Of a DNA stretch of 33,014 bases, positions 6,922-17,453 are shown one piece after another. The DNA is taken from the IMG/VR virus record IMGVR_UViG_2713896896_000010, positions 1 through 33,014 of that record; one strand, 5' to 3'. The notes under the pieces were generated by a model. It ran no database searches. It saw only the letters and a list, made by a program, of their open reading frames with translations, and was not told where the DNA came from. Every line of letters starts with the position of its first letter. Positions within the stretch are counted from its first letter, which is position 1. This DNA comes from a virus (taxonomy: Duplodnaviria > Heunggongvirae > Uroviricota > Caudoviricetes). The position numbers and the translations under genes are program-made.

Positions 6922-7173
6922 ATGAGATGGGCTGACCTTTTTATTATCGCTCTGATTGTTACGGGGATTGCGCTTTGTGTGACAACTAACAAGGCTTCTG
7001 ATGATGCGGAAAATGGGCATTGCGTGGTAAAGAGAAATTTCATCAAAACCATTACGCATTGTGATGATGGAAGCGCCACCATGACCAGCGGGGATAAGTT
7101 TATTTATTGCTCTGCGGGGAAAAATGGCACGCCATCCTGTCATGAAGTGACGCTCGGTGATGGTGATAAATAA
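6922..7173 (+). CDS. Small membrane-anchored or secreted Cys-rich protein
   Basis: Internal ATG of track ORF 6886..7173. Hydrophobic N-terminus LFIIALIVTGIALCVTT followed by a region with at least five cysteines. AT-rich. Confidence 0.45.
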   Translation: MRWADLFIIALIVTGIALCVTTNKASDDAENGHCVVKRNFIKTITHCDDGSATMTSGDKFIYCSAGKNGTPSCHEVTLGDGDK

Positions 7174-7203
7174 TTCATCATATTGAGCAGATAATAATCA
7201 AGC

Positions 7204-7231
7204 GCAGACCAAAACATATGTTTTGGTCTGC
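7204..7231. repeat. 28-bp perfect palindrome GCAGACCAAAACAT|ATGTTTTGGTCTGC
   Basis: Read directly. The 10-mer TGTTTTGGTC from the right half recurs as a direct repeat at 7241..7250. Lies in the gap upstream of the 7254 ORF. Confidence 0.8.
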
Positions 7232-7253
7232 CAAAAGTAGTGTTTTGGTCATT

Positions 7254-7532
7254 ATGAAGATTGAACAAATCGGAATGGCAGCTTTCAGGCAACAGGCTGA
7301 AAGCGGTGGCGTGGATGAGTTCGTCGTGCAGCGGTTCGGTGGTGTGTATCACCTCTTCGCTGTGAATCGCCGCGCCGGGGTGTCCTATTTTCTACAGGAA
7401 CGCCGTGGCGATTACAAGACGTGGTTGTCTCTTGACCGTGCCGCTGCGTTCTTGTCAGGGATTGGCGTTTCACGTTTTACCGTGCGTTTTGAGGATAACA
7501 AACATGCTGAAAAAGATGATCGGGGCCATTAA
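7254..7532 (+). CDS. Hypothetical protein upstream of gemA-like
   Basis: Internal ATG of track ORF 7218..7532. The 7218 ATG sits at the palindrome centre, so 7254 is preferred. Overlaps the gemA-like start. Confidence 0.4.
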   Translation: MKIEQIGMAAFRQQAESGGVDEFVVQRFGGVYHLFAVNRRAGVSYFLQERRGDYKTWLSLDRAAAFLSGIGVSRFTVRFEDNKHAEKDDRGH

Positions 7533-7902
7533 AGCTGGTCAGGCGTATCTGGGGTGGGATGATGCCCTTTATCGCCAGACGCTGGCCCGCCTGACCGGTA
7601 AAACCAGCACCACACGCTGCAATCTCGATGAACTGCGCATCATCCGGGAATACATGCACGAACAGGGATTCCCGCGCAAGGCACCCGCCGGTAAAGGTCG
7701 CCGCCCTCGTGTTGCAATGAGCAGAAAATCAGTATTATCCAAAATTGAAGCGTTGCTGGCTGATGCAGGTCGTTCCTGGGCGTATGCAGAAGGACTGGCA
7801 TCTCACATGTATAAGCAACATGTGATCGAATGGCTGACGGATGAACAGCTTTTTGGAGTGATGGTGGCGCTGGTTAAAGATTCAAGAAGGAGAAATCAAT
7901 GA
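7504..7902 (+). CDS. gemA: GemA-like regulatory protein (Mu gp16 family)
   Basis: Internal ATG of track ORF 7405..7902. N-terminal pattern KKMIGAIKAGQAYLGWDDALYRQTLARLTGKTS matches the GemA/DUF1018 signature as I recall it. Position upstream of mor-like matches Mu. Confidence 0.65.
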   Translation: MLKKMIGAIKAGQAYLGWDDALYRQTLARLTGKTSTTRCNLDELRIIREYMHEQGFPRKAPAGKGRRPRVAMSRKSVLSKIEALLADAGRSWAYAEGLASHMYKQHVIEWLTDEQLFGVMVALVKDSRRRNQ

Positions 7903-8375
7903 TGAAAAAATGGTTGTTTTGTTTAGTAGGGGTTATTTTCTCTTGTTCTGTGCTGGCACAGACAGAGGAACAGGCGCAAAAGGAACTGAAACGTTATCAG
8001 GATATGAAGCCATTGGCTGAACAGATGCTTCGGGAAAGTGGAAAACTTTATTACGCTATGCCAGAAGCTGCATCGCAGTATCAGCAGGGAAATATTGAAG
8101 AGTGGAAGAATATCAAAAAAGGACTAAAACAACTGGATGAACAGGCCAGTAAACTGGGGGACGACCCGCTTGATCCTGTGTATGGTTCCTGCATAAAAAT
8201 GAAAAACCAGCTACAGGATTACTGGTCTAACGTTATCAGGGATGACAGGCAGTTTCTGGAGCGTTCAAGAAATCAGTTTAAAGAATATCGTATGGATTGT
8301 TTTGATTCGTTTGTTTTTGGTAAAGAGCAAATAGAATCAAGAAAAGGCCTGGTTATTCTAGACCTGACTAAATAA
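7899..8375 (+). CDS. AT-rich cargo gene (moron): secreted or lipoprotein-like, helical
   Basis: 158 aa with signal-like N-terminus MMKKWLFCLVGVIFSCSVLA. Clearly AT-richer than flanking phage genes. Followed by a strong intrinsic terminator. Confidence 0.6.
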   Translation: MMKKWLFCLVGVIFSCSVLAQTEEQAQKELKRYQDMKPLAEQMLRESGKLYYAMPEAASQYQQGNIEEWKNIKKGLKQLDEQASKLGDDPLDPVYGSCIKMKNQLQDYWSNVIRDDRQFLERSRNQFKEYRMDCFDSFVFGKEQIESRKGLVILDLTK

Positions 8376-8385
8376 GACTTAGTTT

Positions 8386-8412
8386 AGCCCCTGCCATGCA
8401 GGGGCTTTTTTT
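8386..8412 (+). terminator. Rho-independent terminator
   Basis: Stem AGCCCCTGC / GCAGGGGCT with a 3-nt loop, followed by a T7 run. Read directly. Confidence 0.7.
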
Positions 8413-8418
8413 GTGGTC

Positions 8419-8446
8419 TGTACAGGCGATCATGTATGGCTATAAT
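8419..8446 (+). promoter_or_regulatory. Candidate sigma70 promoter for the mor-like gene
   Basis: Perfect TATAAT at 8441..8446. A weak -35 (TGTACA) lies 16 bp upstream. GGAG Shine-Dalgarno before the ATG at 8476. Confidence 0.3.
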
Positions 8447-8475: not shown

Positions 8476-8943
8476 ATGCAGACCTTCAGTGAAACAGATC
8501 TTCGCGATGCGCAGGCACTGCTGCCCGATTCCGTACAGCAACTGATTAGCGTGATTGGCTTCCCCGCTCTGACCCGGTTGATTCGTTCTTTTGGTGGCGT
8601 GACGTTAAGCGGTAAAACCGGCGCACACGCCGAACGCACCGGCGGTGTCCATGCCCTGTTACATGACGTGCTGACCGAAGACGAAATCAACAAACTGATC
8701 CGCTTTCTTGGCGGTGCACCGTTTTACATTCCCCGTTGTGATCATGCTTTACGTGCCCTGCGTAACACCCGTTTTATGGCTGATTTACAGCAGCATGTTA
8801 AAGGCGGTTGCTCACACCGACAGGCGCTGGCACTGCTTTGTCCCCGTTACGGGATTTCAGACCGGTATGCATGGCAACTGATACACCGACGACAAAAACA
8901 GACTTCGCTGAAAAGCCCCACCCAGGTGGGGCTTTTTGATTAA
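8476..8943 (+). CDS. mor: Mor/C-family transcriptional activator
   Basis: 155 aa. The C-terminal helix-turn-helix-like segment ...RYGISDRYAWQLI is typical of the Mor/C family. Position after gemA-like matches Mu mor. Confidence 0.65.
   Translation: MQTFSETDLRDAQALLPDSVQQLISVIGFPALTRLIRSFGGVTLSGKTGAHAERTGGVHALLHDVLTEDEINKLIRFLGGAPFYIPRCDHALRALRNTRFMADLQQHVKGGCSHRQALALLCPRYGISDRYAWQLIHRRQKQTSLKSPTQVGLFD
8914..8937 (+). terminator. Rho-independent terminator embedded in the 3' end of the mor-like gene
   Basis: GC-rich stem GCCCCACC / GGTGGGGC followed by TTTTT. Overlaps the last codons of the ORF. Confidence 0.55.
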
Positions 8944-8968: not shown

Positions 8969-9247
8969 ATGACCAACTATACGGCACTTGGCGAGTATAC
9001 GGCCTACTCAGAGCAGGCACGGGATGCTGCCGGACGCCGCTTCGCTTATATGAAAAATCTGGCCAGCCAGCTAAACCGAATGGCCGAACAACCGGATATG
9101 GTTGTTCAGGAAGAAGCGTTGCAGTGTGCCATTGCTGACATCATCGCCAGCGAAAACGAGATGCGCGCAGCGATGGAAAAGGCGAACGCCTCTGCTCCGC
9201 TTTGTAATAAACCTCTTATTACGCCGGACTCCCTTTCCCGCTTCTGA
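8969..9247 (+). CDS. Hypothetical protein
   Basis: ATG preceded by AAGGAG at 7-nt spacing. Internal start of track ORF 8936..9247, which begins at a TTG. No helix-turn-helix seen. Confidence 0.5.
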   Translation: MTNYTALGEYTAYSEQARDAAGRRFAYMKNLASQLNRMAEQPDMVVQEEALQCAIADIIASENEMRAAMEKANASAPLCNKPLITPDSLSRF

Positions 9248-17273: not shown

Positions 17274-17355
17274 ATGACCAGAAACGCGCTGTAATCGCCT
17301 GTGACAACATAAACGCCTCACGGATGAGGCATTACAGCACCGCACCCCATAAATG

Positions 17356-17380
17356 CCGTCAGAATCGTTTTTAAAAGGGT
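17356..17380. promoter_or_regulatory. AT-rich dyad CGTTTTTAAAA-GGG-TTTTAAAAACG
   Basis: 11-bp perfect inverted repeat around a GGG centre, read directly. Lies in the gap between G-like and the protease/scaffold gene and is followed by a T-rich tract. Confidence 0.4.
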
Positions 17381-17426
17381 TTTAAAAACGGTTTTATTTC
17401 CCATTTTATCCTTTCGCGTTATGGCA

Positions 17427-17453
17427 GGGTGCTGAACACCCTCCACAGTACCC
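17427..17453 (+). promoter_or_regulatory. Conserved motif copy B (GGGTGCTGAACACCCTCCACAGTACCC)
   Basis: 23 of 27 identical to copy A. The first 15 nt from the GTG are identical to copy C. Overlaps the annotated GTG start of the protease/scaffold ORF. Confidence 0.35.

What the first reader, a model, noticed from the sequence alone, without database searches (positions are those of the whole stretch)
7204..7250. 28-bp perfect palindrome plus a third half-site, centred on an ATG
GCAGACCAAAACAT|ATGTTTTGGTCTGC (7204..7231) is a perfect 14+14 palindrome. The half-site core TGTTTTGGTC recurs as a direct repeat 22 bp downstream (7241..7250). Perfect palindromes of this length are rare by chance. Three phased half-sites suggest an operator for a dimeric DNA-binding protein, a recombination or replication site, or an RNA hairpin. 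It lies between the secreted-protein genes and the gemA-like block, where nothing equivalent is known to me in Mu.
Basis: seen in the sequence. Interest (0 to 1): 0.5.

Follow-up and report, generated by a model that had tools for sequence, protein, structure and literature searches.

The report
Conserved double-hairpin leader before gemA block
The perfect 28-base palindrome is real and evolutionarily protected: it is the first of two tandem 22-base units forming the conserved leader of a small phage gene that heads the gemA block of a Mu-like prophage, most likely folding in the mRNA to control that gene's translation, though action as a DNA operator is not excluded.

Summary
7204-7231 is a perfect 14+14 palindrome, where simulations reached at most 10 per arm, and TGTTTTGGTC recurs at 7241-7250. 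There are four boxes, not three: two tandem 22-nt units, each CCAAAA-N6-TTTTGG.

The element lies in an 80-nt gap directly upstream of a 92-aa gene (7254-7532, phrog_7844) that overlaps gemA. It travels with that gene: 58 of 5426 E. coli genomes carry it behind three different upstream modules, and homology starts about 10 nt before the palindrome.

Arms vary as little as codon positions 1-2. The hairpin top and the unit-2 spacer vary at least as much as third positions. Relatives at 53-76% protein identity keep CCA-N12-TGG-N4 twice, with different, compensated stems. The central ATG is not conserved.

Best reading (about 0.45): a structured leader in the early mRNA. Its tandem and nested folds differ by about 2 kcal/mol, and it gates translation of an SD-poor start.

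Rivals: a pair of DNA operators (Mu has an annotated semi-early promoter before gemA), an mRNA stability or processing hairpin, a minus-strand terminator, or a relic of an upstream ORF's 3' end.

There is no Rfam match and no other copy in the prophage. It is a modestly interesting new member of a known kind.

The parts
7191..7203 (+). Conserved flank left of the palindrome, consensus A.A.TAA(T/C)CAA... This is the left limit of the homology shared by prophages with different upstream modules. On the minus strand it is the U-rich stretch that follows the hairpin.
   Evidence: Matches in most E. coli relatives begin at query position 312-316, which is window 7191-7195. Upstream sequences of the three module types are shown.
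7204..7231 (+). Hairpin 1, the perfect 14+14 palindrome. As RNA it forms a 12-bp stem with an AUAU loop, at -18.4 kcal/mol.
   Evidence: Stem pairs 1-11 are variable at 14% of sites; positions 12-17 are variable at 83%.
7207..7216 (+). Box A1, GACCAAAACA. It is complementary to both B1 and B2.
   Evidence: inverted repeats I2 and I5.
7219..7228 (+). Box B1, TGTTTTGGTC. It can pair with A1 (hairpin 1) or, through UUUUGG, with A2 across the 4-nt loop UCUG.
   Evidence: Helix B1:A2 is paired in 89.9% of cells across 23 relatives.
7231..7236 (+). Box A2, CCAAAA. It is invariant in the E. coli clade.
   Evidence: 0 of 6 sites are variable among 26 haplotypes. C32 and A33 are invariant across all 23 relatives.
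7237..7240 (+). Hypervariable 4-nt spacer or loop of unit 2 (GTAG, GTGA, GCGA, GTAA, ATGA, GCAA).
   Evidence: 4 of 4 sites are variable, with pi 0.30 against 0.116 at third codon positions.
7241..7250 (+). It ends 3 nt before the start codon. It contains the family-invariant TGG (7246-7248), the only Shine-Dalgarno-like bases before the AUG.
   Evidence: T46, G47 and G48 invariant.
7254..7532 (+). 92-aa gene (phrog_7844; no Pfam family). The element is always immediately upstream of it. The start at 7254 is supported by the family alignment.
7504..7902 (+). gemA (PF06252). It overlaps the 3' end of the 92-aa gene by 29 nt, so the two are probably co-expressed.

Best explanation
The palindrome is unit 1 of a two-unit, four-box leader (A1 GACCAAAACA, B1 TGTTTTGGTC, A2 CCAAAA, B2 TGTTTTGGTC). 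It sits immediately upstream of a small conserved phage gene, phrog_7844, which heads the gemA block. I propose that it acts in the plus-strand early mRNA.

All four boxes are mutually complementary, so the leader has two mutually exclusive folds.
- Tandem fold: the strong hairpin 1 (A1:B1) forms. B2 and the start region are then held only by a weak A2:B2 hairpin.
- Nested fold: A1 pairs with B2 in a 10-bp helix that ends 3 nt before the AUG, and B1 pairs with A2 inside it.

The start site has almost no Shine-Dalgarno sequence; UGG is the only invariant candidate. The balance between the two folds, or a factor that binds one box, would therefore set how much of the 92-aa protein is made. It would probably also set the amount of gemA, which overlaps that gene's 3' end.

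In relatives where a long upstream ORF reads through units 1 and 2 and stops between A2 and B2, ribosomes would open the structure, which gives translational coupling.

Shown: the anatomy, linkage to the gene, purifying selection on the arms with free loops, compensatory changes, and near-equal fold energies.

Inferred: that RNA rather than DNA is the active form, and the direction of the effect.
For: 1. Linkage to the gene.
- In E. coli the element sits behind three unrelated upstream modules, and homology starts at window 7191-7195.
- In other relatives the gene is followed by a small terminase subunit rather than gemA, and the two units are still there.

2. Selection.
- Arms and boxes are variable at 14%, 0% and 15% of sites, like codon positions 1-2 (15% and 11%).
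- The hairpin top and the unit-2 spacer are variable at 83% and 100% of sites, which is at least as much as third positions (62%).

3. Family-wide architecture. A gapless alignment of 23 distinct leaders, from relatives down to 53% protein identity, has CCA and TGG invariant in both 22-nt units. The second TGG lies 2-11 nt before the ATG, mostly 4-6.

4. Complementarity is kept while sequence changes.
- Stems read CCAAAAC/GTTTTGG in E. coli, TTACCAAAAT/ATTTTGGTAA in L051, CCAAATTG/CAATTTGG in L055 and ACCAAAT/ATTTGGT in L027.
- Pair 15-20 occurs as CG, UA, UG, AU and GC.
- A C-G to A-T double change is seen in E2348/69.
- Complementarity reaching to within 2-6 nt of the dyad centre is expected of a nucleic-acid stem more than of a protein dyad.

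5. Energetics. The tandem and nested folds are -21.2 and -19.4 kcal/mol in this window. In the common CATGTT variant they are -17.9 and -18.4. The predicted ensembles flip between the two topologies among natural variants.

6. No usable promoter travels with the element. The shared sequence upstream of the palindrome is only about 13 nt, and sigma-70 scans give nothing consistent across the three contexts.

7. In L027, L028 and L033 the units lie inside the 3' end of a 125-134-codon upstream ORF that stops 12 nt before the ATG. That is an arrangement typical of translational coupling.
Against: - No strand-specific signal. Single-sided changes give G.U on the plus strand about as often as A.C (about 3 events against 2-4), so RNA pairing on the plus strand is not demonstrated.
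- The predicted folds are not the same in all relatives.
- The start region is not significantly less accessible than with shuffled upstream sequence.
- The covariation statistics do not separate the tandem from the nested structure. They rest on few independent lineages.
- Identical 10-nt half-sites and a strictly conserved 22-bp period (two helical turns) are also what tandem operators look like.
- Mu has a documented promoter at the analogous position.
- No transcript-level or protein-binding data were available.
Confidence: 0.45

Rival explanations
1. DNA-level operators. The two 18-bp dyads (CCAAAA-N6-TTTTGG), centred 22 bp apart, bind two dimers of a phage or host regulator. This controls an internal 'semi-early', gem-type promoter for the 92-aa gene, gemA and downstream genes.
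For: - There are four like half-sites in a head-to-head, tandem arrangement with a strictly conserved 22-bp period in all 23 relatives.
- Arms are conserved and spacers are free.
- The Mu record annotates a semi-early promoter at 8151-8217 just before gemA. A cited 1992 paper title reports constitutive gem operon expression in lysogens.
- A -10-like NATAAT lies 6-11 nt left of the palindrome in several contexts, and a 9/12 promoter-like match ends 8 nt before it in E2348/69.
Against: - No consistent -35/-10 pair exists across the three upstream contexts. L003 gives none, and in this window the only hit lies inside the variable upstream gene.
- Only about 13 nt upstream of the palindrome is shared, so no full promoter travels with the element.
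- In L027, L028 and L033 the units lie inside a long upstream ORF.
- The dyad occurs nowhere else in the prophage, and the repressor operators have an unrelated AAAGTACGA motif.
- In distant relatives unit 2 is barely symmetric (CCAAAATAACCGGAATGG).
- Compensatory changes reach to within 2-6 nt of the dyad centre, where a protein dimer would not demand them.
Confidence: 0.22
2. An mRNA stability or processing element. Hairpin 1 acts in the long early transcript as a decay barrier or as a nuclease (RNase III or RNase E) processing site. This gives the distal gemA-mor segment its own half-life, with no direct effect on translation initiation.
For: - Hairpin 1 is a stable (-18.4 kcal/mol) intercistronic stem in a roughly 9-kb polycistronic early region.
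- In this window flanking sequence extends the stem.
- Mu has a hairpin at the equivalent place before gemA.
Against: - It does not explain the second unit, the identity of B1 and B2, the invariant CCA/TGG boxes, or the fixed short distance to the start codon.
- The flanking extension is not conserved, because the upstream modules differ.
- The stem is weak or absent in some relatives, such as L033, L037 and L038.
Confidence: 0.15
3. A relic plus recombination linker. The element is what remains of the 3' end of an ancestral upstream gene. It is kept only because module exchange happens just upstream of it, and it has no regulatory role.
For: - In the frame where box A2 reads Pro-Lys, all relatives encode ...(N/D)Q...(F/Y)G.PK. 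This is the true C-terminus of a 125-134-codon Cys-rich ORF in L027, L028 and L033, but elsewhere the frame is open for only 16-35 codons.
- Mosaic junctions cluster at 7191-7195.
Against: - A neutral relic would not show arms as constrained as codon positions 1-2 next to loops as free as third positions.
- It would not keep a gapless 22-nt period in lineages down to 53% protein identity.
- In the relic frame the E. coli variants carry many non-synonymous changes, all confined to the loops.
- The 14-bp perfect stem is an elaboration, not decay.
Confidence: 0.1
4. A minus-strand (or bidirectional) intrinsic terminator that stops antisense transcription from entering the early region, or that ends a short antisense RNA.
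For: A loose consensus scan calls the hairpin plus its following T-rich tail on the minus strand in all three upstream contexts: GCTTGATTAT, TTGGTTATTA and ATTTGATTAC. The conserved flank at 7191-7203 coincides with that tail.
Against: - The tail is interrupted, with no run of more than 2-3 U.
- No minus-strand gene lies nearby, and the promoter scan found no minus-strand promoter-like site within 2 kb.
- It does not explain unit 2 or the linkage to the start codon.
- There is no excess of changes that would be G.U on the minus strand.
- On the plus strand there is no U-tract at all.
Confidence: 0.08

Closest known systems
Four-segment translational attenuators such as the ermC/cat leaders (from established knowledge, not tested here)
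   Same: - Four consecutive, mutually complementary segments (1:2 / 3:4 against 2:3).
- The last segment overlaps the ribosome-binding region of the regulated gene.
- Alternative folds of similar energy.
   Different: - No conserved leader peptide. The loop ATG is not conserved, and the short frames lack consistent start codons.
- The alternative fold here is nested (1:4 + 2:3).
- No inducer is known.
Phage Mu com-mom translational control: a stem-loop sequesters the mom start and is opened by Com binding (from established knowledge)
   Same: - It occurs in a Mu-type phage.
- A stem next to an initiation region would gate translation, possibly through a small phage protein.
   Different: - Different locus (early gemA block, not the mom operon) and unrelated sequence.
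- No Com-like zinc-finger protein is implicated.
- Binding of any protein is untested.
Mu semi-early (gem) promoter region upstream of gemA, as annotated in AF083977 at 8151-8217 (PMID 9454718, not readable here)
   Same: - Same map position, at the head of the gemA-mor block.
- Mu also has a hairpin (GGCGGTG-TTGCAG-CACCGCC) 9 nt before the gemA ribosome-binding site.
   Different: - No sequence similarity.
- No tblastn match to the 92-aa gene in the phage collection, which includes Mu.
- No promoter consensus is conserved here.
- The element follows the 92-aa gene even where gemA is absent.
Tandem dyad operators of phage and plasmid repressors (lambda OR/OL, P22 Arc/Mnt type)
   Same: Inverted half-sites, two sites on the same helical face (22 bp apart), conserved arms and free spacers.
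   Different: - No adjacent promoter and no candidate binding protein.
- A single locus per genome.
- Complementarity is maintained to within 2-6 nt of the dyad centre.
Intrinsic (Rho-independent) terminators
   Same: A stem with a GC-rich base and a 4-nt loop. The minus-strand tail is moderately U-rich.
   Different: - No U-tract on the plus strand, which is the transcribed strand.
- The minus-strand tail is interrupted and nothing is known to be transcribed that way.

Membership tests
Intrinsic terminator, plus strand | Stable GC-rich stem followed within 0-2 nt by a run of U | tested here: not met
   The stem is present. The 3' flank is CAAAAGUAGUG, and the scan gave no plus-strand call here.
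Intrinsic terminator, minus strand | Stem followed by a U-tract, at the end of a transcription unit on that strand | tested here: inconclusive
   A loose scan (at least 5 T in 8) is met in three contexts. The tail is interrupted. No minus-strand gene lies nearby, and the promoter scan found no minus-strand promoter-like site within 2 kb.
Any curated RNA family (Rfam 15) | Covariance-model score at or above the gathering threshold | tested here: not met
   There are no gathering-level hits in the whole window. The best local hit scores 19.8 bits against a threshold of 55.8, with E 0.23.
Dispersed repeat (REP/BIME, ERIC, MITE) | Many copies per genome in unrelated contexts | tested here: not met
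   It is found in 58 of 5426 E. coli genomes, the same count as the 1031-bp prophage region. There are 1-3 places per genome; I read the extra places as the palindrome matching its own reverse complement, which I did not verify. The phage collection gave no match.
Operator of a sigma-70 promoter | Dyad overlapping or adjoining a -35/-10 pair that is conserved with it | tested here: inconclusive
   The dyads are present. Promoter-like matches are inconsistent: 9/12 in E2348/69, none in L003, and in the window only inside the variable upstream gene.
Operator of a sigma-70 promoter | A cognate DNA-binding protein that footprints the site | not testable with these tools
   This needs EMSA or footprinting.
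This prophage's repressor / Ner-type operators | Shares the operator motif found between the repressor and ner genes | tested here: not met
   The operators there are AAAGTACGA repeats and a CCGATAATC dyad. No CCAAA-N4-10-TTTGG dyad occurs there.
Leader-peptide translational attenuator (ermC type) | Four mutually complementary segments, the last covering the ribosome-binding site | tested here: met
   Boxes A1, B1, A2 and B2. The alternative folds are within 2 kcal/mol of each other.
Leader-peptide translational attenuator (ermC type) | A conserved, translatable leader ORF overlapping segment 1 | tested here: not met
   The upstream gene stops 31 nt before the hairpin. The loop ATG is not conserved, and the short frames lack consistent starts.
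Structured RNA element (generic) | Compensatory base changes that keep pairing, above controls | tested here: inconclusive
   For the tandem and nested structures respectively:
- Cells paired are 76% and 81.5%, against 26-55% for slid partners.
- 0 of 500 shuffles reach the paired fraction, and 1-2 of 500 reach the covariation score.
- The pair-count measures are not above the shuffles, the lineages are few and related, and the two structures score alike.
Structured RNA element (generic) | Strand-specific tolerance of G.U but not A.C | tested here: not met
   There are about 3 plus-strand G.U events against 2-4 A.C events in the E. coli clade.

The most novel reading that the evidence does not exclude
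The four-box leader is a self-contained RNA switch without a leader peptide, and the 92-aa eL38-like protein it precedes binds one of the CCAAA/UUUGG boxes. The protein would thereby autoregulate its own translation and, through the overlapping reading frames, dose GemA (and Mor downstream). That would make this small gene plus leader a portable translational control cassette that gates the early-to-middle transition of a group of Mu-like phages.
Probability: 0.1. Interest if true: 0.55.

Novelty: new member of a known kind. Interest (0 to 1): 0.33.

Why it matters
GemA and Mor sit at the hinge between early and middle gene expression in transposable phages. The gem block is known to be expressed differently from the rest of the early operon in Mu, but how it is controlled is poorly described.

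A conserved cis-element under selection at the head of that block gives a concrete, mutable handle for asking how these genes are dosed. This holds whether the element is an RNA fold or an operator. One carrier is the well-studied EPEC strain E2348/69.

The finding also corrects a recurrent annotation error: the 92-aa gene is often called as 104 aa from the palindrome's incidental ATG. The family is narrow and the kind of element is familiar, so the wider impact is modest.

Tried and rejected
- Other copies of the half-site or dyad in the prophage, including the repressor/ner operator region. None was found beyond chance.
- A homologue of the 92-aa protein, or of the element, in sequenced phages including Mu. 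None was found.
- Rfam. No family matched.
- Plus-strand terminator. Rejected because there is no U-tract.
- The central ATG as the real start codon or as a leader ORF. Rejected because it is not conserved, and because the family alignment fixes the start at 7254.
- Strand bias of G.U against A.C substitutions, as a way to prove an RNA on one strand. There was no bias.
- Accessibility of the start region against shuffled upstream sequence. The difference was not significant.
- A conserved sigma-70 promoter next to the element. The matches were inconsistent.
- A small-peptide reading of the conserved frame (..NQ..FG.PK). Rejected for the E. coli clade, because its substitutions are non-synonymous and confined to the loops.
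- Widening the family through metagenome, viral and genome scans and a profile search. It stays small, at about 20 protein clusters.
- The primary paper on the Mu semi-early promoter (PMID 9454718). It is not held in the library.

Full report
**Context.** The window is a Mu-like prophage of E. coli 20KM0223N (100% match, NZ_CP151045.1). In the annotated record the gene order is ner-like, transposase A, B, a run of small early genes, gemA, mor, lysis genes and late genes, all on the plus strand. The finding lies in an 80-nt gap. On its left is an 83-aa ORF (6922-7173). On its right is a 92-aa ORF (7254-7532) that overlaps gemA (7504-7902) by 29 nt. The 92-aa protein has no Pfam family and belongs to phrog_7844, of unknown function.

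**Observation.**
- 7204-7231 is a perfect 14+14 palindrome.
- It is the longest in the window by far; the next longest arm is 8. In 300 first-order Markov simulations the longest arm was 6-10.
- TGTTTTGGTC occurs three times, all here.
CCAAAA at 7231-7236 faces the third half-site.
- The element is therefore two tandem dyads, CCAAAA-N6-TTTTGG at 7209-7226 and 7231-7248, 22 nt apart. These are the only two such dyads in the prophage, including its left end.

**Conservation and linkage.**
- The region is present in 58 of 5426 complete E. coli genomes.
- In most of them homology to the window begins at 7191-7195, about 10 nt left of the palindrome. To the left there are three unrelated upstream modules.
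- The element therefore travels with the downstream gene.
- Across 39 copies there are 16 variants of the element.
- In a longer comparison (26 haplotypes of 36 copies) variability was as follows:

| Region | Variable sites | pi |
|---|---|---|
| Hairpin 1 stem, pairs 1-11 | 14% | 0.026 |
| Box A2 | 0% | 0.000 |
| TGTTTTGGTCATT | 15% | 0.011 |
| Codon position 1 of the gene | 15% | 0.030 |
| Codon position 2 of the gene | 11% | 0.012 |
| Six central bases of hairpin 1 | 83% | 0.179 |
| 4-nt spacer of unit 2 | 100% | 0.297 |
| Codon position 3 of the gene | 62% | 0.116 |

- This is a clear signature of purifying selection on the arms only.
- The central ATG is lost in several variants.
- Some genome annotations start the gene there, giving 104 aa. 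The family alignment, however, has an invariant Met at 7254.

**Distant relatives.**
- The protein family is small, about 20 clusters from Escherichia, Leminorella, Intestinirhabdus, Erwinia and unnamed enterobacterial contigs.
- I recovered upstream sequence for 12 lineages outside the E. coli clade. Eleven of them, with 12 E. coli-clade variants, gave 23 distinct leaders that align without a single gap over 52 columns.
- The invariant columns are CCA and TGG of unit 1 and CCA and TGG of unit 2. The motif is [CCA-N12-TGG-N4] twice. The start codon follows 2-11 nt after the second TGG.
- The twelfth lineage, the most distant relative (L030/L032), has a different A4/T4 palindrome upstream and was left out of the alignment.
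- Hairpin 1 is rebuilt with different sequence in different lineages: TTACCAAAAT-AATC-ATTTTGGTAA in L051, CCAAATTG-AA-CAATTTGG in L055 and ACCAAAT-GAATAC-ATTTGGT in L027.
- Three relatives carry the gene in front of a small terminase subunit instead of gemA and still have both units. The element belongs to the 92-aa gene, not to gemA.

**Origin.**
- In the frame where box A2 reads Pro-Lys, all lineages encode ...(N/D)Q...(F/Y)G.PK.
- In L027, L028 and L033 this is the real C-terminus of a 125-134-codon Cys-rich ORF that stops 12 nt before the ATG. Elsewhere the frame is open for only 16-35 codons.
- The leader thus looks derived from, or once overlapped by, the 3' end of an upstream gene.
- In the E. 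coli clade the substitutions in that frame are non-synonymous and confined to the loops. The present constraint is therefore on the nucleic acid, not on a peptide.

**RNA or DNA?** All four boxes are mutually complementary, so two RNA folds are possible.
- The tandem fold is A1:B1 plus A2:B2.
- The nested fold is A1:B2 plus B1:A2. It buries the 10 nt that end 3 nt before the AUG.
- Their energies are -21.2 and -19.4 kcal/mol here, and -17.9 and -18.4 in the common CATGTT variant.
- Predicted ensembles flip between the two topologies among natural variants and relatives.
- Hairpin 1 alone is -18.4 kcal/mol. The 116-nt region folds with z = -4.0 on the plus strand and -3.4 on the minus strand.

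Pair counts on the 23-sequence alignment:

| Structure | Cells paired | With partner slid | Shuffles reaching the paired fraction | Shuffles reaching the covariation score |
|---|---|---|---|---|
| Tandem | 76% | 26-48% | 0 of 500 | 1 of 500 |
| Nested | 81.5% | 28-55% | 0 of 500 | 2 of 500 |

- The best-kept helix is B1:A2, paired in 89.9% of cells.
- Pair 15-20 occurs as CG, UA, UG, AU and GC.
- The measures that count pairs or pair types are not above the shuffles, the lineages are few and related, and the two structures score alike.
- Single-sided changes give plus-strand G.U about as often as A.C. No strand-specific RNA signal exists.
- The start region is not significantly less accessible than with shuffled leaders.

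Three points favour a nucleic-acid stem over a protein dyad.
- Complementarity is maintained by compensation to within 2-6 nt of the dyad centre.
- Only about 13 nt of shared sequence lies upstream of the palindrome, so no complete promoter travels with the element. Sigma-70 scans are inconsistent.
- The element is glued to an SD-poor start codon, and in some relatives it lies inside a translated upstream ORF.

Three points favour a DNA operator.
- The 10-nt half-sites are identical.
- The 22-bp period is strict.
- There is a precedent in Mu. The Mu record annotates a semi-early promoter at 8151-8217 right before gemA. A cited 1992 title reports constitutive gem operon expression in lysogens. 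Mu itself has a hairpin 9 nt before the gemA ribosome-binding site.

**Verdict.**
- I rank a structured plus-strand mRNA leader that gates translation of the 92-aa gene, and probably of the overlapping gemA, first at about 0.45.
- A pair of DNA operators for an internal gem-type promoter is second (0.22).
- Then come an mRNA stability or processing hairpin (0.15), a functionless relic or recombination linker (0.10) and a minus-strand terminator (0.08).
- The minus-strand terminator is called by a loose scan in all three contexts, but it has an interrupted U tail and nothing to terminate.

**Known families.**
- There is no Rfam match.
- There is no match in the phage collection.
- The element is not a dispersed repeat.
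- It is unrelated to this prophage's repressor and Ner-type operators.
- It works most like a four-segment translational attenuator, but it lacks the defining leader peptide, so I do not file it there.

**Assessment.** The feature is real, selected and previously undescribed, and of a familiar kind. It is confined to a narrow group of Mu-like prophages. The decisive experiments are transcript-end mapping and compensatory-mutation reporters in a carrier strain such as E2348/69.

Noticed in passing
window 8386-8446: A strong plus-strand intrinsic terminator (AGCCCCTGC-CAT-GCAGGGGCT followed by TTTTTTT) sits just after the 158-aa secreted-protein gene. It is followed by a 10/12 sigma-70-like promoter (TGTACA-16-TATAAT, 8419-8446) ahead of mor (8476). 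In this prophage mor may therefore be cut off from the early transcript and have its own promoter, unlike Mu.
   Followed up: partly
window 8911-8936: A perfect 12-bp inverted repeat, AAAAGCCCCACC/GGTGGGGCTTTT, lies at the 3' end of mor. It has an A-tract before it and a T-tract after it, like a bidirectional terminator. The position matches the terminator predicted just after mor in the Mu record (9179-9200).
   Followed up: no
window 17363-17394, inside the intergenic gap 17274-17428: An A/T-rich near-palindrome (AATCGTTTTTAAAA/TTTTAAAAACGGTT) lies in the only sizeable intergenic gap near the middle of the prophage, between a 183-aa ORF and a 389-aa ORF. From memory, this is about where Mu carries its strong gyrase site. 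This was not tested.
   Followed up: no
window 7218-7532; L005 1528-1842; L008 1528-1842; protein clusters P0001 and P0002: The 92-aa gene is annotated inconsistently in public genomes. Some records give 104 aa starting at the palindrome's central ATG, and others give 92 aa. The family alignment and the loss of that ATG in several variants support the 92-aa start.
   Followed up: yes
L027 1081-1485, L028 1093-1485, L033 2063-2485: A 125-134-codon Cys-rich ORF (CxxCGCDD...CSxC motifs, no Pfam hit listed) lies upstream of the 92-aa gene in three relatives. Its last roughly 15 codons are the two 22-nt units. It may be the ancestral partner gene of the leader.
   Followed up: partly
[not shown]
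   Followed up: partly
L036 2501-2975 and L039 2501-2935: Two degraded prophage copies have frameshifted 92-aa/gemA genes. They still keep the element, and L039 has a 1-nt deletion in the hairpin loop.
   Followed up: no
L001 940-1121 (left of the window): The repressor-ner intergenic region carries repeated AAAGTACGA-type boxes and a CCGATAATC-GAATTT-GATTATCGG dyad just before the ner-like gene. These are presumably the repressor and Ner operators of this prophage.
   Followed up: no
window 7237-7257: In every E. coli-clade variant, positions 7240-7242 read ATG or GTG. They open a 5-codon frame (M/V-F-W-S-L-stop) whose TGA overlaps the gene's ATG (ATGA). No Shine-Dalgarno sequence precedes it, and its significance is unknown.
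   Followed up: no
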